Source of the DNA: a virus
Lineage: Duplodnaviria > Heunggongvirae > Uroviricota > Caudoviricetes
Virus record (IMG/VR): IMGVR_UViG_2657245570_000016
DNA: 42,242 nt
Reading direction: 5' to 3' (one strand)
A program made the translations under genes and the position numbers. Position 1 is the first letter of the stretch, and the number at the start of each line of letters is the position of its first letter. This document shows, in pieces, positions 4,743 to 42,242 of the stretch. The notes beneath the pieces are model-generated. The model had not been told where the DNA came from. It ran no database searches and worked only from the letters and a program-made list of their open reading frames with translations.

Positions 4743-4936
4743 TAGCTTTCGCCTTCCTGCTTTTTGCGTTTCTTCATGCAGATAGCGCAGTTCTCAGGAT
4801 GGTCATGCCATTCGTCAATCCTGATACCTGTGAACATCCATTTTCCGCATAGTGATATGGCTTCCCCCGAATTAAAGAAATGTGCTTTTTTCGACAGGGC
4901 GGGGAACCCCCAACCTTTATTATCGATATTAGACAT
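4742..4936 (-). CDS. Small putative zinc-binding phage protein
   Basis: 64 aa with C-x12-H-x-H-x5-C-x2-C spacing (LCGKW...WHDHPENCAIC) and a basic tail; its stop overlaps the VRR-NUC start (TAATG on the minus strand). Confidence 0.45.
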   Translation of the reverse strand: MSNIDNKGWGFPALSKKAHFFNSGEAISLCGKWMFTGIRIDEWHDHPENCAICMKKRKKQEGES

Positions 4937-5120
4937 CGTCCACCTCCTTACGCTTTTCGCGCATGTTCTGCATCAGACAAAAATCAAACCGACGTTCGCT
5001 TTGGCCCAGACCTGCATCGCCCGGTCGTACCCGCTGGACTGTTCAAGGCGCAAAGCCTCCCGTGCAGTCCGGTAATAAAGCGGACTGTCCCGGTATTTAA
5101 ATGACATAGGGTTTTTATTC

Positions 5121-5171: not shown

Positions 5172-5933
5172 TTACGAGGAAGCGTTAGCTATTTGAGCTT
5201 GTGTAAATTCGAAACCAGAATTTTGTAACCGTTGCACTAGACGAGGAACTGTTTCACGTACATGGTCGTTGAAATTCAGATACAAAATCCCGTTAGCATC
5301 AGAAGGCTGTTCTAGGTGCTGTTTCTGAAGGATTGCTACATTGCTGCGCCCTAAGGACGAAAGAAGCATACCCATCTCGAGTACAACGTTCTGTCTTGCG
5401 CGGGGTTGGATTTCTGCTTCACCGGCGCGCTTTGAGTATCCCATATCATCAGGTGTCAAAAGAACAATCCCGAAACGAGTAGCAGTTTGTCCTTGCCCAA
5501 TTTCACGTTCAAGCTCTTCAATAATGGTGAGTCCAGTCCCTCCCGTATTCTGCAAAATGAAATGGTCTGGTAATCCAAGTTTATGAAGGATTAGCTCAAG
5601 TTGTTCCTTTGCAGTATGGTCATGGCCGTGAACAATGAATATCTTTTTGGGAAGCTCAGATGGCTGTTCTACGGCTAGTGGTGTTGCCGTGGGGGGCGTT
5701 CCTAAATGGGACATTATTGCAGTTTCAACATTGGGACGTTCTTGAGGGTTCCCTTGAAACTGAATGGTCCGGGTGGTGTAAAGGTTAACAATTACGCCAT
5801 TCGTTAAACGATAGCAGTCATAAGTCTCACGCTGTTCGTGGGAAAAATTGGTGAACCCACACTCCCTCAAAAAGTCAGGAAAAGATTCTCTCGGGTATGG
5901 ATAGTTGATCGGCATTTCAGTTAGTTCCTGCAT
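5172..5933 (-). CDS. Hypothetical protein: N-terminal domain of unknown function (about 90 aa) plus C-terminal TIR-like domain (Cap12/PycTIR-type predicted nucleotide-binding fold)
   Basis: C-terminal KKIFIVHGHDH...FGIVLLTPDD...RARQNVVLEMGMLLSSLGRSNVAILQK...PSDANGILYL matches my recollection of the TIR-like consensus (FIvHG ... TPDD ... RaRqNVvfElG ... pSD..G..y). GC content looks lower than the flanking pol gene. AAAGGA Shine-Dalgarno before the ATG. Confidence 0.55.
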   Translation of the reverse strand: MQELTEMPINYPYPRESFPDFLRECGFTNFSHEQRETYDCYRLTNGVIVNLYTTRTIQFQGNPQERPNVETAIMSHLGTPPTATPLAVEQPSELPKKIFIVHGHDHTAKEQLELILHKLGLPDHFILQNTGGTGLTIIEELEREIGQGQTATRFGIVLLTPDDMGYSKRAGEAEIQPRARQNVVLEMGMLLSSLGRSNVAILQKQHLEQPSDANGILYLNFNDHVRETVPRLVQRLQNSGFEFTQAQIANASS

Positions 5934-37606: not shown

Positions 37607-38283
37607 GCAAATACACCGAACTAATCACGAACTACCACGCCACCAAACCTAAATTTCTTGCGCATGTTGATCTGATGACCCGGCCACTTATTGATGTTGC
37701 GGCTGCCACCAGAGGGCTGATTAGTGCATTTGATATTGACTCTGCGGTTGGTGTGCAACTTGACATCCTTGGATTGTGGATCGGACGTAGCCGTGTTGTC
37801 AGCCAGCCTATCTCAGGTGTCTATTTCAGCTGGGATACCGACGGGCTTGGATATGATCAGGGGGTATGGCAGGGACCATACGATCCTGATTCAGGATACA
37901 TGTATCTCAGCGATGAAACTTATCGTGTCATTCTTAAAGCGAAGATTGCGATTAATAACTGGGACGGACGGAATGATTCGCTTCCGGCAATTCTTGACGC
38001 GGCAACAGCAGGATCCGGGCTGCGAATGCAGATAGTCGATAACCAGGACATGACGATATCGGTCTGGGTCTTTCCTGATACTGATATTTCAGATGTATCG
38101 CGTGAGTTAATTGCGGCAATTAAACAGGGGTATCTCACAGTAAAAGCCGCCGGGGTATGGGCGGGTGGCATTGAAACACCTTCGGTGGAAACCCCATCGG
38201 AAGGCTCAAAATTTTTTGGTTTTGATATGGATAACGAATTCATCAGTGGTTTTGATGTAGGAGCATGGGGAGTATTACTCTGA
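37603..38283 (+). CDS. Baseplate/tail protein (I-like)
   Basis: 226 aa between J-like and tail fibre genes. Confidence 0.45.
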
Positions 38284-38978
38284 TGGCGAAAAATGACTTT
38301 AAAGCGTTTGCAACGGATCGAAATGCCAATGTTATATCGCAGGAGGAATGGGAAGCGTTGCCCGCGCTTTTATCTGGATTTACAGCAGGGAAAGCCTCCA
38401 GTGCGCAAGTCAATAAGGTTATTCGGCAGGCCAGCTTTATTGCTGCAGCTCTGGCCCAGTTTGTAAGTGATAAAACGCAACGGGATGTGCTTGATAATGG
38501 TGATCTGCCCGGTTTTGTTGAATTGCTGGGATCGGGGTTTGCTGTTGAATACCTGAGCCGCAAGAATCCGTTTGGCGATATCAAATCGGACGGCACGGTG
38601 AAAACAGCTCTCGAAAACCTTGGTTTGGGAGAAGCGGCAAAACGGAATGTGGGCACAGGAGATAATCAGATACCGGATATGGGAGCATTCGCTTCTGGTT
38701 CGGGATGGTTCAGGCTACCAGGTGGATATATTGTTCAGTTTGGCACTTTTTCAGGAAACACGACCCGCTTTATCAGTGGACACTTCCCTATACCATTCCC
38801 TAATCAGCCGATGATTTCAGTCAGTGTTATGTCTGATGCCGTTCAGTCAGACCCGTCGAATCCTGCCCCGCAGGTTTTGTCTGTAAATTTTGAACATATC
38901 AGTAATTCAGCGTGGCGTGTGGCAACCAGTGATATCTCACAGCAATACAGATTCAGTTATATTTCGATAGGACGGTAG
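38265..38978 (+). CDS. Tail fibre protein (constant part plus currently expressed variable C-terminus)
   Basis: Contains the left inversion site at 38611-38634 inside the coding sequence; followed by a tail fibre assembly gene. Alternative ATG at 38283. Confidence 0.6.
38611..38634. repeat. Invertase recombination site, left (hix/gix-like)
   Basis: TCGAAAACCTTGGTTTGGGAGAAG; its left half resembles the hix half-site as I recall it; matches the reverse complement of 40429-40452 at 21 of 24 positions. Confidence 0.6.
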
Positions 38979-38980
38979 AA

Positions 38981-39421
38981 ATGCAGAAATATATTTTCAG
39001 TGCCGATAAAAATGCGTTTTTCCCTGTGGAGCTTAAAATCGCTTATCAGGAATCCGGCGAATGGCCCGATGATGGAATCGAAATTGACGACACTGTTGCT
39101 GCCGAATTTATGAAGGAAGCACCAGAAGGAAAATACAGAGGTGTCATCGACGGAATGCCTGCATGGATTGATATTCCACCGCCAACTCATGAGGAACAAA
39201 TTGCCGCAGCCGAACTGAAAAAGCAGCAATTGATTAATCAGGTCAACGAATACATAAACAGTAAGCAATGGCCTGGTAAAGCGGCGATTGGTCGCCTGAA
39301 AGGTGAGGAACTGGTGCAATATAATTTGTGGCTGGATTATCTGGACGCACTGGAACTGGTCGATACTTCCGGTGCGCCAGATATTGAATGGCCTACGCCT
39401 CCGGCAGTTCAGGCCAGATGA
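38981..39421 (+). CDS. Tail fibre assembly protein (Tfa/U-like)
   Basis: 146 aa; conserved C-terminal ELVDTSGAPDIEWPTPP, mirrored by the opposite-strand paralogue (DTSTAPDVIWPELP). Confidence 0.7.
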   Translation: MQKYIFSADKNAFFPVELKIAYQESGEWPDDGIEIDDTVAAEFMKEAPEGKYRGVIDGMPAWIDIPPPTHEEQIAAAELKKQQLINQVNEYINSKQWPGKAAIGRLKGEELVQYNLWLDYLDALELVDTSGAPDIEWPTPPAVQAR

Positions 39422-39989
39422 CATCCGGCGCGGTGCTGGTATCTGTTGCCGTCACCGCGTCAATGTAATCCAGCACAGCGTTAAGCCGGGTTGTTTCTGC
39501 CTGCGTCAGTTTCCGCCCGGCTTGTAATTTCAGCTGAATCAGACTAATGGAAGCCATTGCTGCATCAATCAGTGACTGGCGCTGTGCTTCTGACGCGTCT
39601 ACTGCGGCGCTATGCTGTGCCTCGGTATCCGTCACCCATTTCTCACCATCCCATTTATCGTATGGCATTAACGGTGAAAGCGTGACATAACCATCTTTGA
39701 TGGCACCGATATAATCCACTGTAACAGCTGCGCCATTTTCGATTGAGTAAACAGTCTCATTGCGATGGTCCTCTTCATGGCTCCATCCCTTACCTGTAAA
39801 TACAGCCACTTTTCCCGGAATGTTTTCGCCAGGGTTAATTCCAGTGGAACAGGCGGGCATACTTACGCCAGTATTAATATATTCATCAGACCAGCCCGTA
39901 TACTCAGATGTTTCAGCATCATAATAAAAACAACGCATATCGCCCGGCACTGTAGCCAGTCCATTTTCATCAAAAATTGGGGTCATCAT
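39393..39989 (-). CDS. Alternative tail fibre assembly protein (Tfa') inside the invertible segment
   Basis: 198 aa on the opposite strand with a Tfa-like C-terminus; convergent and overlapping with tfa. Confidence 0.65.
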   Translation of the reverse strand: MMTPIFDENGLATVPGDMRCFYYDAETSEYTGWSDEYINTGVSMPACSTGINPGENIPGKVAVFTGKGWSHEEDHRNETVYSIENGAAVTVDYIGAIKDGYVTLSPLMPYDKWDGEKWVTDTEAQHSAAVDASEAQRQSLIDAAMASISLIQLKLQAGRKLTQAETTRLNAVLDYIDAVTATDTSTAPDVIWPELPEA

Positions 39990-40441
39990 TTAGCCCTCAC
40001 CAGAAAGTTAAATGCAATATTTCGCGGTCTGACGGCAACAAAATTCACACCATCACCCACAGAGTTACTGGTGAAATTAAATCGTGAAAATCCTGGCTGA
40101 TTTCCGGCGATACCATCATGAAAATTAATTGTGTGGCCCGCACCATCGCCTATATTCCCGGCAAACTGAGAAAAGTTTGTAGCTGCCTGCCAGCTTAATA
40201 ATTCGCGACCACCGTCTGCACCTCGCCCGTCATCCCAGATACGAATGAAATCACCGCGGGCTTCAGGTAATACCAGCGAAGGAAACACTTTCGCCAGCAC
40301 AGGGTAATCAGAGGCAGAAAATTTCGCCCCGTTAAACTTCAAAAACACCATACCGGACCAGCTGTCGATGACAGAATTTGGCATTGCAGCGGACGGCCAG
40401 AAGAACGGAACGCCAATAGCTGGGGCACCTTCTCCCAAACC
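39986..40441 (-). CDS. Alternative tail fibre C-terminal segment (Sv'-like; promoterless, expressed only after inversion)
   Basis: Open frame on the minus strand starting at the right inversion site; encodes a Gly-rich fibre-like C-terminus; no plausible own start. The ORF-track Met at 40483 lies outside the invertible segment. Confidence 0.55.
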   Translation of the reverse strand, partial: GLGEGAPAIGVPFFWPSAAMPNSVIDSWSGMVFLKFNGAKFSASDYPVLAKVFPSLVLPEARGDFIRIWDDGRGADGGRELLSWQAATNFSQFAGNIGDGAGHTINFHDGIAGNQPGFSRFNFTSNSVGDGVNFVAVRPRNIAFNFLVRAK

Positions 40442-40452
40442 AACGTTTATGA
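40429..40452. repeat. Invertase recombination site, right (hix/gix-like)
   Basis: CTTCTCCCAAACCAACGTTTATGA is the inverted copy of 38611-38634; lies 57 bp upstream of the invertase start. Confidence 0.6.
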
Positions 40453-40509
40453 AAATGCAGAAATAACGAGCAAATGGCATCATTCCTGCTTTTGTCAGAG
40501 GGATCCACT

Positions 40510-40824
40510 ATGCTTATTGGCTATGTACGTGTGTCAACAAATGACCAGAACACAGATCTACAACGTAATGCGCTGAACTGTGCAGGATGCGAGCTGTTTT
40601 TTGAAGACAAGATAAGCGGTACAAAGTCCGAAAGGCCGGGACTGAAAAAACTGCTCAGGACATTATCGGCAGGTGACACTCTGGTTGTCTGGAAGCTGGA
40701 TCGGCTGGGGCGCAGTGTGCGGCATCTTGTCGTGCTGGTGGAGGAGTTGTGCGAACAAGGTGTTAATTTTAGTAGTTATGTTATTACAGGTGGGGGATTT
40801 CTCCCCCTTATGCAGATTTTCTAG
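40510..40824 (+). pseudogene. Serine DNA invertase (Hin/Gin/Pin/Cin family), truncated after about 96 codons
   Basis: MLIGYVRVSTNDQNTDLQRNAL...DTLVVWKLDRLGRSV closely matches the Pin/Hin N-terminal catalytic domain; after EQGVNF the sequence diverges (SSYVITGGGFLPLMQIF*) into AT-rich DNA. Typical family members are about 185-190 aa. Confidence 0.75.
40787..40802. other. GC hairpin at the junction between the truncated invertase and AT-rich DNA
   Basis: GGGGGA-TTTC-TCCCCC perfect 6-bp stem, about 27 nt downstream of the stop of the minus-strand 281-aa gene. Confidence 0.4.
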
Positions 40825-40828
40825 TTAA

Positions 40829-41674
40829 CTATTGGCGAAGTGGCCATATTTTTCTGTTTTTTAAAAAACTATCTTCAACTATATAACTGCAACAATGTTC
40901 ACTAAGGCCATAAAAACTAATTATTCCATATTTATGAGAAGCTATATCAGACAGTTCTGCTAATACTGTGGCAAGCCAACGAGCGATGCTAAGAGAATAG
41001 AATCTTCCCCACTTTTGAACAATGGTATTTTGTCCAGTACGGATGGAGGCTGATATAAGGTCTTGCATAATGTTGGTACTTTCATTCATATACATGACCG
41101 TTGTATACGGTGAAAGAGTGGCATTGATAAACCTAGCATTTTCTTCAACACGTCTTTGTTCAACTGTATAATAATAATGTTTTTCAAGGATACTCTCGGC
41201 TACTTCTCCCCACCATTTATTAATAGGTTCATTATTGGTTAAATTGGGGCTGCTTAATGAGGAGAAATTTGCGTAACGTCCCCGTCGGGCATCAGCAAAG
41301 GAATCTAAACATTCAAGTATTTTGTAGGTAATTTTATGTGTAGGACGTGAATATCTCAGAGATAGTTGCATTTTTTTAGAAATACTATCAACCTCGTTGG
41401 TTAATTCAATGAGCTTATGTCCAAATTTTCTTACAATATTCTCATCAGGCATTTTCCCTTTGTGTTCAATGGCATAGTGTGCAACAAGTATTAGTTTAGC
41501 AAGTCTCTCAAAACCTACAGAAAGCCCAAAAAATGCTGTGTAATATTCACCTATTTTGTCTGCATAATTGGCTTTACCTATGGCTGTTGCCCCAGAACCA
41601 ATGAGCTGTGTAACTAAAGATGCTTCTCGGCCCAGAGCGTGCCATGCTGGAATATCCCAGGGATTTTTATTCAC
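40829..41674 (-). CDS. Hypothetical protein (281 aa), AT-rich cargo gene
   Basis: Long ORF in visibly AT-rich DNA; no motif I can assign confidently. Confidence 0.5.
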   Translation of the reverse strand: MNKNPWDIPAWHALGREASLVTQLIGSGATAIGKANYADKIGEYYTAFFGLSVGFERLAKLILVAHYAIEHKGKMPDENIVRKFGHKLIELTNEVDSISKKMQLSLRYSRPTHKITYKILECLDSFADARRGRYANFSSLSSPNLTNNEPINKWWGEVAESILEKHYYYTVEQRRVEENARFINATLSPYTTVMYMNESTNIMQDLISASIRTGQNTIVQKWGRFYSLSIARWLATVLAELSDIASHKYGIISFYGLSEHCCSYIVEDSFLKNRKIWPLRQ

Positions 41675-41801
41675 TTTATTATTTTCCTTTGCTCATAAAT
41701 TTAAATTGTTTGAGTATCTCATAAAATATAAGGAGATGGTTAAGGTTGTTGATCGCATATAATAGCTATTGAAAGTCAAGAACTCGGTTTTATGTTCTAC
41801 C

Positions 41802-41842
41802 ACTAATTAATATATTGTGAGTTTGACAATATATTAATTAGT
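41802..41842. repeat. Perfect palindrome (16-bp arms, 9-bp spacer) upstream of the 281-aa gene
   Basis: ACTAATTAATATATTG-TGAGTTTGA-CAATATATTAATTAGT; the arms are exact reverse complements. Confidence 0.6.
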
Positions 41843-41975
41843 ATGATCAAACCAGCCATCAACTGATTCCTTGTATCTTTCAGAGTCTCCAGAACAAAAG
41901 CCTTAACGAATTCCTTATTTGTGAGTGCCTTACCAAAAGCCCATTGTTGCAGGGAACGAGTATAAAACTCGCCAG

Positions 41976-42242
41976 CTACTGGAGCAGGCTACCTGATTGT
42001 CGATCGATTCCTGCGTCCATATAGTCGATGGTCTTCTGGAGCTCTTCGATTAGGGCAATAGCTTTTGCTCGAGAAATGCATATTAGTTGATCCGGAAATT
42101 CTTGTAAGGGCCAGTTTGGTATACAGGCCATGTTATCAGTGAAGGATGCAGACAAGTAAACTTCATTGGTAACTAGGGAATAGCTTACCTCAAAATTGGT
42201 GAGTTCCGGCAAACTGCTAACGTTTGATTCTTTTCTGCGCAT
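41976..42242 (-). CDS. Hypothetical protein (apparent Met is at the window edge; may extend beyond the window)
   Basis: 88-aa ORF whose ATG coincides with the last 3 nt of the window; AT-rich. Confidence 0.35.
   Translation of the reverse strand: MRRKESNVSSLPELTNFEVSYSLVTNEVYLSASFTDNMACIPNWPLQEFPDQLICISRAKAIALIEELQKTIDYMDAGIDRQSGSLLQ

What the first reader, a model, noticed from the sequence alone, without database searches (positions are those of the whole stretch)
38611..40452. Hin/Gin-type invertible tail-fibre (host-range) segment with hix-like crossover sites
A 24-bp sequence inside the tail fibre gene (38611-38634, TCGAAAACCTTGGTTTGGGAGAAG) is repeated in inverted orientation at 40429-40452 with 21 of 24 matches, with the central dinucleotide TT on the top strand at the left site and on the bottom strand at the right site. 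The 1.8-kb segment between them carries two convergent tail-fibre-assembly genes and a promoterless alternative fibre C-terminus on the minus strand, exactly the Mu G-segment / P1 C-segment layout.
Basis: partly seen in the sequence, partly recalled or inferred. Interest (0 to 1): 0.55.

Follow-up and report, generated by a model that had tools for sequence, protein, structure and literature searches.

The report
Invertible tail-fibre switch with broken invertase
This is a real but well-known kind of DNA flip-switch that lets an E. coli prophage swap the tip of its tail fibre; its own flipping enzyme is truncated here, yet near-identical copies in other genomes sit in both orientations, so an enzyme encoded elsewhere in the cell probably does the flipping.

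Summary
The 24-mers at 38611-38634 and 40429-40452 are inverted repeats (21/24; 0 of 100 shuffles gave a second match). The core is TT on the left and AA on the right. Both 26-bp sites (38608-38633, 40430-40455) are identical at all 52 positions to the crossover sites of the e14 P segment in E. coli K-12. Their half-sites fit those of Mu gix and P1 cix. The segment carries two alternative fibre C-termini, each with its own Tfa chaperone. A simulated inversion gives an in-frame 264-aa fibre. That flipped sequence exists at 100% identity in 16 complete E. coli genomes (18 at >=99.9%); the window's orientation exists in 3. It lacks helix E and the DNA-binding domain. The same truncation occurs in 43 genomes and in both orientations, so at least one inversion followed it and needed an invertase in trans. 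There is published precedent: PinQ and PinR invert e14's P segment. I could not locate the trans enzyme. Verdict: a new member of a known kind, with a modest twist.

The parts
38283..38619 (+). Constant N-terminal part of the tail-fibre gene, outside the invertible segment (about 112 codons). It ends in the conserved ...[10 protein letters not shown] motif that the left site encodes.
   Evidence: ORF list and NCBI annotation of the identical genome. PHROG tail-fibre families match residues 1-120. It is 100% identical in genomes of either orientation.
38608..38633 (.). Left 26-bp crossover site, CTCTCGAAAACC TT GGTTTGGGAGAA. It is equivalent to the left site of the e14 P segment.
   Evidence: 26/26 identical to the e14 site in K-12; half-sites fit Mu gix and P1 cix. 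Homology to Klebsiella/P2-like phage cassettes begins here (query position 332). Differences from flipped genomes start at 38635.
38620..40443 (.). Invertible segment, core dinucleotide to core dinucleotide (1824 bp including both cores).
   Evidence: A simulated inversion of exactly this interval is reproduced at 100% identity in 16 complete genomes. It differs by 1 base in 23,959 from L003.
38634..38978 (+). Variable fibre C-terminus A (gp53-like C-terminal domain). It is currently fused to the constant part, giving a 231-aa fibre.
   Evidence: Pfam PF21882 Gp53-like_C, E=3e-8, residues 150-237 of the 237-aa ORF; translation.
38981..39421 (+). Tail-fibre assembly chaperone (146 aa), cognate to C-terminus A.
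   Evidence: Pfam Caudo_TAP E=9e-34; phrog_188 E=2e-62; 56% identical to e14 TfaP.
39393..39989 (-). Tail-fibre assembly chaperone (198 aa), cognate to C-terminus B. It converges on the other tfa gene and overlaps it by 29 nt.
   Evidence: Pfam Caudo_TAP E=2e-25; phrog_105 E=2e-83; 64% identical to e14 TfaE.
39986..40483 (-). Alternative fibre C-terminus B (tail-collar type). The part from 39986 to about 40441 lies inside the segment. The ORF runs on to an ATG at 40483 in the spacer, like stfE in e14.
   Evidence: phrog_3100 and phrog_523 (tail fibre / tail collar fibre), E=2e-53 and 7e-45; 45% identical to K-12 StfE. After simulated inversion it fuses in frame to give a 264-aa fibre. That fibre is annotated as a complete CDS in flipped genomes.
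40430..40455 (.). Right 26-bp crossover site, TTCTCCCAAACC AA CGTTTATGAAAA.
   Evidence: 26/26 identical to the e14 site. It is unchanged in all truncated-invertase relatives examined.
40510..40776 (+). Truncated pin-type serine invertase gene, codons 1-89 of about 184. The ORF then reads 15 unrelated codons to a stop at 40824.
   Evidence: Pfam Resolvase N-terminal domain, E=1e-28, profile positions 2-98 of 145 only. 83/89 aa identical to K-12 PinE. Homology to intact pinE ends at 40776. NCBI calls it a pseudogene missing its C-terminus. No 3' half is present anywhere up to attR.
40528..40599 (.). Stretch equivalent to the recombinational (Fis) enhancer, nt 19-90 of the invertase gene.
   Evidence: It is in register with the enhancer annotated in P1 cin. 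Identity is 69/72 to e14 pinE, 54/72 to P1 and 53/72 to Mu. G...C 15-mers lie at gene nt 22-36 and 71-85; the proximal one is about 96 bp from the right core. Fis binding was not tested.
40777..42242 (.). AT-rich cargo arm that replaced the 3' end of pin. It holds a 281-aa ORF of unknown function (40829-41674, minus strand) and continues about 208 nt past the window to attR.
   Evidence: 37% GC against about 50% for the prophage. No Pfam, PHROG or PADLOC match. The same junction occurs in 43 genomes. attR was located.

Best explanation
This is a Pin/e14-type (Din-family: Hin/Gin/Cin/Pin) invertible tail-fibre segment at the right end of a complete, roughly 42-kb contractile-tailed prophage inserted between yfhL and yfhH of E. 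coli. A serine invertase dimer binds each of the two inverted 26-bp sites. With Fis bound at an enhancer in the first ~90 nt of the invertase gene, the tetramer cuts at the 2-bp cores (TT/AA), rotates 180 degrees and religates. This flips 1.8 kb. Flipping exchanges which of two receptor-binding C-termini, each followed by its own Tfa chaperone, is fused in frame to the constant fibre N-terminus. The result is a 231-aa gp53-like fibre, as in the window, or a 264-aa collar-type fibre. In this prophage lineage the cis invertase is truncated at codon 89, so it has no helix E and no DNA-binding domain, and foreign AT-rich cargo takes the place of its 3' end. Both sites and the enhancer-equivalent stretch are intact. 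The switch therefore depends on a Pin-family invertase supplied in trans by another element in the same cell. Shown here: the sites, the layout, the in-frame fusion, the truncation, and both orientations among near-identical copies. Inferred: the cleavage chemistry, the Fis dependence, the identity of the trans enzyme, and the host-range consequence.
For: The repeat is real and non-random. Both 26-bp sites are identical to the e14 sites, and the half-sites fit gix and cix. Domain content is as expected. The simulated inversion is in frame. It is found at 100% identity and 100% coverage in 16 genomes (18 at >=99.9%), against 3 genomes in the window's orientation. L003 differs from the simulated flip by 1 base in 23,959. 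Flipped and unflipped genomes share the same insertion site, the same truncated recombinase pseudogene and the same 281-aa neighbour. The same truncation junction is present in 43 genomes. No pin 3' half and no other invertase lies in the element. The enhancer-equivalent stretch is 69/72 identical to e14's and is in register with P1's annotated enhancer. Each genome of the near-identical group has at least one more pin-family N-terminal homologue in its chromosome. Published experiments show that the e14 P segment, which has the same inverted repeats, is inverted by PinE and in trans by PinQ and PinR (PMC12529663). e14 inversion has been seen by whole-genome sequencing within clonal cultures (PMC4272514).
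Against: I could not locate the second pin-family gene or show that it is intact, because the search tool gives no coordinates for secondary places. The crossover can only be placed within the 15-bp identical stretch 38620-38634. The product is therefore the same as that of rare homologous recombination between the repeats. The crude Fis-motif spacing came out at 49 bp, against 47 bp in the literature (PMC3798978). The 3:19 orientation split could come from a single inversion event, so the flipping rate is unknown. One relative (EPSSH018) and three O26/O111-type genomes show no second PinE-family homologue in the chromosome, even with sensitive blastn.
Confidence: 0.85

Rival explanations
1. 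Frozen relic. The switch died when the invertase was truncated. The two orientations seen in genomes were fixed beforehand or were moved between copies by homologous recombination, and nothing flips today.
For: The invertase is certainly non-functional. Only 3 of 22 near-identical genomes have the minority orientation, so one event could explain the split. In K-12, a pinE deletion is reported to lock the e14 segment at physiological expression levels (PMC12529663).
Against: A truncation happens on one DNA molecule with one orientation. Copies sharing the identical junction and differing by 1 base in 24 kb occur in both orientations, so at least one inversion came after it. Transfer of the truncated arm by recombination between otherwise identical prophages of opposite orientation is less parsimonious. 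Sites and enhancer-equivalent stretch remain intact across 43 genomes.
Confidence: 0.1
2. The inversion arose by general (RecA-type or illegitimate) recombination between the short inverted repeats, not by a site-specific invertase.
For: The exchange point can only be mapped to the 15-bp identical stretch 38620-38634, and homologous exchange would give the same product.
Against: Fifteen to 21 bp of identity is a very poor substrate for homologous recombination (established knowledge). The repeats are exact copies of experimentally proven invertase sites (PMC12529663). Opposite states also occur in other lineages carrying the same truncation.
Confidence: 0.04
3. The selected function is host defence, not phage host range. 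As with PinQ and StfE2 in e14, inversion creates a small chimeric fibre-tip protein, read from the ATG at 40483, that masks surface receptors and blocks adsorption of other phages.
For: The minus-strand ORF starts outside the segment, and its leader (MMPFARYFCIFINVGLGE) resembles that of K-12 StfE. In flipped genomes NCBI annotates the equivalent 132-aa gp53-like ORF as a complete CDS. StfE2 is reported to block T2 adsorption (PMC12529663).
Against: Unlike e14, this prophage looks complete: integrase, replication, lysis, terminase, head, tail and baseplate genes are all present. The ordinary host-range role therefore suffices. No promoter above chance was found upstream of that ORF. The fibre C-termini differ from e14's, so the T2 result cannot be carried over. 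This reading is compatible with the main mechanism and concerns only the benefit.
Confidence: 0.12
4. Assembly artefact. The orientation differences among genomes reflect mis-assembly across the repeats.
For: None specific. Inverted repeats can confuse assemblers in general.
Against: The repeats are only about 20 bp, far shorter than any read. Twenty-one independent complete assemblies agree base for base with one of the two predicted arrangements.
Confidence: 0.01

Closest known systems
P segment and PinE of cryptic prophage e14 (E. coli K-12)
   Same: Both 26-bp crossover sites are identical (52/52 positions). The gene order is the same: fibre, tfa, tfa(-), fibre C-terminus(-), pin. The segment is almost the same length (1794 against 1797 nt between arms). 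The right site, spacer and pin 5' region are 94% identical in DNA. The retained PinE residues are 83/89 identical.
   Different: It lies in a different and complete prophage, at yfhL/yfhH rather than icd, with a DUF2612 rather than DUF2313 baseplate neighbour. The receptor-binding cassettes differ: C-terminus A is unrelated to StfP, C-terminus B is 45% identical to StfE, and the Tfa proteins are 56-64% identical. The invertase here is truncated.
G segment and Gin of phage Mu
   Same: Constant and variable fibre organisation with two fibre-tip/chaperone pairs in opposite orientation. 26-bp sites with half-sites ending AAACC. Invertase gene immediately beside the right site, with the enhancer in its 5' end.
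   Different: The Mu segment is 3 kb with longer flanking repeats (41 nt at 93%) and a TC/GA core. Identity in the enhancer stretch is only 53/72. Gin is intact.
C segment and Cin of phage P1
   Same: The same TT/AA core dinucleotides and half-site family. The annotated enhancer at cin nt 19-90 aligns in register with the retained pin fragment.
   Different: The P1 segment is 4.2 kb, cin lies on the opposite side relative to the fibre gene, identity in the enhancer stretch is 54/72, and Cin is intact.
Cross-talk between invertases: PinQ and PinR acting on e14; Fin of Fels-2 acting on the Salmonella H segment
   Same: An invertible segment is flipped by an invertase encoded in a different prophage. 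This is the mechanism inferred here (PMC12529663).
   Different: In those cases the segment's own invertase (PinE, Hin) is also intact. Here the cis enzyme is missing, so trans action would be the only route.

Membership tests
Din-family (Hin/Gin/Cin/Pin) Fis-dependent invertible segment | Two 26-bp crossover sites in inverted orientation, each made of two imperfect 12-bp half-sites (about TTNTCNNAAACC) around a 2-bp core | tested here: met
   Sites at 38608-38633 and 40430-40455. All four half-sites fit the consensus derived from e14, Mu and P1 sites read from their records.
Din-family (Hin/Gin/Cin/Pin) Fis-dependent invertible segment | Core dinucleotides that are complementary between the two sites, so that the staggered ends pair after a 180-degree rotation | tested here: met
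   TT at 38620-38621 and AA at 40442-40443, the same pair as P1 cixL/cixR and e14.
Din-family (Hin/Gin/Cin/Pin) Fis-dependent invertible segment | An adjacent intact serine invertase gene (about 184-193 aa: catalytic domain, helix E and C-terminal helix-turn-helix) | tested here: not met
   Only codons 1-89 remain (40510-40776). There is no C-terminal half up to attR and no other invertase in the window. The cis elements qualify, but the locus is not a self-sufficient system.
Din-family (Hin/Gin/Cin/Pin) Fis-dependent invertible segment | A recombinational enhancer with two Fis sites, centres about 47-48 bp apart, about 100 bp from the nearest crossover site and inside the 5' end of the invertase gene | tested here: inconclusive
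   The stretch 40528-40599 is in register with P1's annotated enhancer and is 69/72 identical to e14's. The candidate proximal site is about 96 bp from the core. My crude motif scan gives 49-bp spacing, and Fis binding cannot be tested here (PMC3798978).
Din-family (Hin/Gin/Cin/Pin) Fis-dependent invertible segment | The segment carries alternative fibre C-termini with cognate chaperones in opposite orientations, and inversion keeps the reading frame | tested here: met
   for the domains; for the in-frame 264-aa product; for its annotation as a CDS in flipped genomes.
Din-family (Hin/Gin/Cin/Pin) Fis-dependent invertible segment | Both orientations actually occur | tested here: met
   Three genomes in the window's orientation and 18 flipped at >=99.9% identity. 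L003 differs from the simulated flip by 1 base in 23,959. Heterogeneity within a single culture was not testable.
e14 element itself (same mobile element as in K-12) | Integration in icd and the e14 gene set, with StfP/TfaP/TfaE/StfE cassettes | tested here: not met
   It is inserted between yfhL and yfhH. The cassettes are only 45-64% identical or unrelated. It shares e14's recombination module but is not e14.
Multi-site shufflon-like fibre switches (Min of p15B; three-site P2-like prophage switches) | Three or more crossover sites giving more than two arrangements | tested here: not met
   Only two sites with the AAACCNNGGTTT core and matching half-site flanks exist in the window. The four other 1-mismatch core matches lie far away and lack those flanks.

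The most novel reading that the evidence does not exclude
The 5' stub of pin is not just debris. It is kept because it contains the Fis enhancer. This prophage's host-range switch would then be a pure cis element that has handed control to invertases of co-resident prophages. The orientation of its fibre would be set by whatever induces those foreign enzymes, for example phage attack as reported for pinQ. Under this reading the two crossover sites also serve as the boundaries for wholesale cassette replacement, as seen in strain 82.0312.
Probability: 0.3. Interest if true: 0.5.

Novelty: new member of a known kind. Interest (0 to 1): 0.3.

Why it matters
Invertible tail-fibre segments are textbook biology, and this one uses the same crossover sites as e14, so the switch itself teaches nothing new. 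What is worth recording is the natural experiment. A lineage of complete prophages, found in 43 complete E. coli genomes, has lost its own invertase but kept the sites and the enhancer-bearing stub. Near-identical copies still occur in both orientations, and one copy has a cassette replacement bounded exactly by the sites. This supports, from genome data alone, the recently reported idea that prophage invertases act across elements. It also warns annotators that 'partial' fibre and recombinase pseudogenes at such loci can belong to a working switch. It also matters for predicting host range from prophage sequence, because the fibre that is read depends on which orientation happened to be assembled.

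Tried and rejected
1. Locating the trans-acting invertase failed. search_dna_similar reports only the best place per record, so the second pin-family place in the ST38-like genomes could not be given coordinates.
2. I looked for sibling prophage records from strains 606, 611 and 683 carrying an invertase, using the pinE 3' half and the pin 5' stub. None appeared.
3. A split gene was rejected. No pin 3' half was found by tblastn or blastn anywhere up to attR.
4. A third crossover site (shufflon-like system) was rejected.
5. I first read the 99.8% phage hits (vB_EcoM-606R2 and others) as an unrelated phage sharing the cassette. I withdrew this because the records carry tadA, yfhB and yfhH flanks and the same truncated invertase, so they are this prophage in the flipped state.
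6. The idea that the stub's enhancer part is more conserved than the rest was not supported. Among truncated relatives, nt 1-100 of the stub varies more (89-92%) than nt 100-267 (about 100%). This probably reflects recombination breakpoints.
7. Searches of Pfam, PHROGs and PADLOC for the 281-aa cargo ORF found nothing.
8. A literature search for the phage record name found nothing.
9. The sigma-70 promoter scan of the spacer was at chance level.
Full report
CONTEXT. The window is E. coli chromosome. It matches three complete genomes at 100%. It consists almost entirely of one prophage inserted between yfhL and yfhH, which lie 55 bp apart in K-12. A duplicated attachment core of about 38 bp sits at window ~214-251 and again about 208 nt beyond the window's right end. 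The prophage looks complete. It has an integrase, replication genes, holin and lysozyme, terminase, portal and head genes, sheath- and tube-like proteins, and a baseplate. The finding lies at its right end.

OBSERVATION. The two 24-mers match in inverted orientation at 21 of 24 positions. The repeat finder gives a 20-nt arm pair at 95% complementarity, 1794 nt apart. With up to three mismatches the motif occurs only at these two places, and none of 100 shuffles gave two matches. In the register of the invertase family the sites are:
- left, 38608-38633: CTCTCGAAAACC TT GGTTTGGGAGAA
- right, 40430-40455: TTCTCCCAAACC AA CGTTTATGAAAA
The cores are complementary between the two sites, as inversion requires. 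No third site exists in the window.

ANATOMY.
- The fibre gene (38283-38978, +) contains the left site at codons ~109-117. Its N-terminus matches tail-fibre PHROGs and its C-terminus matches Pfam Gp53-like_C.
- Two Caudo_TAP chaperone genes follow, 38981-39421 (+) and 39393-39989 (-). They converge and overlap by 29 nt.
- A tail-collar-type fibre C-terminus lies on the minus strand, from 39986 to the right site. Its ORF runs on to an ATG at 40483.
- Inverting 38620-40443 in silico fuses the constant N-terminus in frame to this second C-terminus. The result is a 264-aa fibre, followed directly by the 198-aa chaperone.

THE INVERTASE. MLIGYVRVSTNDQ... starts 54 bp to the right of the right site, at 40510. 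It matches only positions 2-98 of the 145-position Resolvase N-terminal profile. It is 83/89 aa and 254/267 nt identical to K-12 PinE. Homology to intact pinE stops at 40776, codon 89, after which 15 unrelated codons lead to a stop. NCBI annotates it as a pseudogene missing its C-terminus. No 3' half lies anywhere up to attR, and no other invertase is in the window. The replacing DNA is 37% GC against about 50% for the prophage. It holds a 281-aa ORF with no Pfam, PHROG or PADLOC match. From established knowledge of serine recombinases, a protein without helix E and the C-terminal helix-turn-helix cannot bind the sites or form the active tetramer.

COMPARISON WITH KNOWN SYSTEMS. I read the reference sites from their own records: e14 in MG1655, Mu and P1. 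Both window sites are identical to the e14 sites at 26/26 positions. All half-sites fit the family pattern, and the TT/AA core pair is also that of P1 cix. P1's record annotates the enhancer at cin nt 19-90. The equivalent stretch here (40528-40599) is 69/72 identical to e14's, 54/72 to P1's and 53/72 to Mu's. A crude scan finds G...C 15-mers at gene nt 22-36 and 71-85, in register in the window, e14 and Mu. The proximal one is about 96 bp from the right core. The literature gives about 100 bp and 47 bp between Fis site centres (PMC3798978). My spacing is 49 bp, so this point is supportive but not conclusive. The cassettes are not e14's: C-terminus A is unrelated to StfP, C-terminus B is 45% identical to StfE, and the chaperones are 56-64% identical. 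This is therefore e14's recombination module on a different phage with different receptor-binding tips.

DOES IT FLIP? I searched 5,426 complete E. coli genomes with equal-length queries in the window's arrangement and in the simulated flipped arrangement.
- The window's arrangement is present at 100% identity in 3 genomes.
- The flipped arrangement is present at 100% identity and full coverage in 16 genomes, and at 99.9% in 2 more.
- One flipped genome (L003) differs from my simulated flip by a single base over 23,959 compared bases. Against the unflipped window its differences begin at 38635 and end at 40428.
- Flipped genomes have the prophage at the same site, with the same truncated recombinase and the same 281-aa neighbour.
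- Three 'phage' records (vB_EcoM-606R2, 611R5, 683R1) are this same prophage, all in the flipped state.

INFERENCE OF TRANS ACTION. The truncation junction with its cargo is shared by 43 genomes at 94.5-100% identity. The 101-nt junction is 98-100% identical in every copy I fetched. A truncation arises on one molecule in one orientation. Near-identical descendants in both orientations (3 against 19 in the closest group of 22) therefore imply at least one inversion after the enzyme was lost. More distant truncated copies also differ in state:
- L009 and L010 express the collar-type tip.
- L011 expresses a gp53-like tip.
- L012 carries other cassettes.
In L009 the flanks are 100% identical to the window, and all 407 differences lie between 38639 and 40422. 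That is a cassette replacement bounded by the two sites. Each genome of the closest group has at least one more pin-family N-terminal homologue in its chromosome. Such homologues occur in 4,650 of the 5,426 genomes. Published experiments show that the e14 P segment, with the same repeats, is inverted by PinE and in trans by PinQ and PinR (PMC12529663). e14 inversion is also detectable within clonal cultures (PMC4272514).

LIMITS.
- I could not obtain the coordinates of the second pin-family gene, or check whether it is intact.
- The crossover maps only to the 15-bp identical stretch 38620-38634, so rare homologous exchange would give the same product.
- The number of independent inversion events is unknown.
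- Whether the minus-strand ORF starting at 40483 is expressed is open. The promoter scan was at chance level, while the homologous e14 ORF is reported to yield an adsorption-blocking protein after inversion (PMC12529663).
- That paper also reports that a pinE deletion locks e14's segment. My inference only: such a deletion would also remove the enhancer, which the stub here retains.

VERDICT. The feature is a new member of a well-known kind, and its nearest relative is e14's P segment. The one point of interest beyond the ordinary is that the locus is invertase-less yet polymorphic in orientation, which points to control by invertases of other elements. Interest is modest (0.3).

Noticed in passing
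window 40777-42242 (continues about 208 nt past the window end to attR): AT-rich (37% GC) cargo arm that replaced the 3' end of pin. It holds a 281-aa ORF (40829-41674, minus strand) with no Pfam, PHROG or PADLOC match. It is conserved together with the truncation in 43 E. coli genomes. Its position at a prophage end suggests a moron or defence-type gene.
   Followed up: partly
window ~40784-40800: A GC-rich hairpin, GGGGGATTTCTCCCCC, lies immediately after the point where pin homology ends. It could be the terminator of the 281-aa ORF, or part of the DNA that was joined there.
   Followed up: no
window 41802-41818 / 41826-41842: A perfect 17-nt AT-rich inverted repeat (ACTAATTAATATATTGT ... 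ACAATATATTAATTAGT) with 7 nt between the arms, in the cargo arm. Its function is unknown.
   Followed up: no
window 41976-42242 (minus strand): An ORF of at least 88 aa that runs off the right end of the window, with no PADLOC match. It is not annotated in the RefSeq genome but is called hypothetical in the phage-record copy.
   Followed up: no
window 5172-5933 (minus strand): A TIR-domain protein is annotated in the prophage early region, beside a DNA polymerase, an SNF2-related protein and a VRR-NUC protein. It may be a defence or counter-defence gene.
   Followed up: no
window ~214-251, and about 208 nt beyond the window end: An attachment-site duplication of about 38 bp. The prophage is inserted in the 55-bp yfhL-yfhH intergenic region of K-12.
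   Followed up: yes
L009 (NZ_CP122451.1, strain 82.0312), equivalent to window 38639-40422: The flanks are 100% identical to the window for more than 1 kb on each side. All 407 differences lie between the two crossover sites. The segment interior has been replaced, with the sites as boundaries.
   Followed up: partly
NZ_CP047378.1 (strain CAU16175), 4221437-4222804: About 1.37 kb separates the pin stub from the 281-aa ORF, instead of 52 nt. This is presumably an insertion.
   Followed up: no
window 39331-39348 / 39457-39474: An 18-nt inverted repeat (83% complementary) that is also present in e14. It arises because the two convergent Tfa genes encode the same C-terminal motif on opposite strands, and it is not a recombination site.
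   Followed up: partly
window ~4929-5107 (minus strand): A small ANR-family regulator is annotated as frameshifted. Apart from pin, it is the only other pseudogene in the prophage.
   Followed up: no
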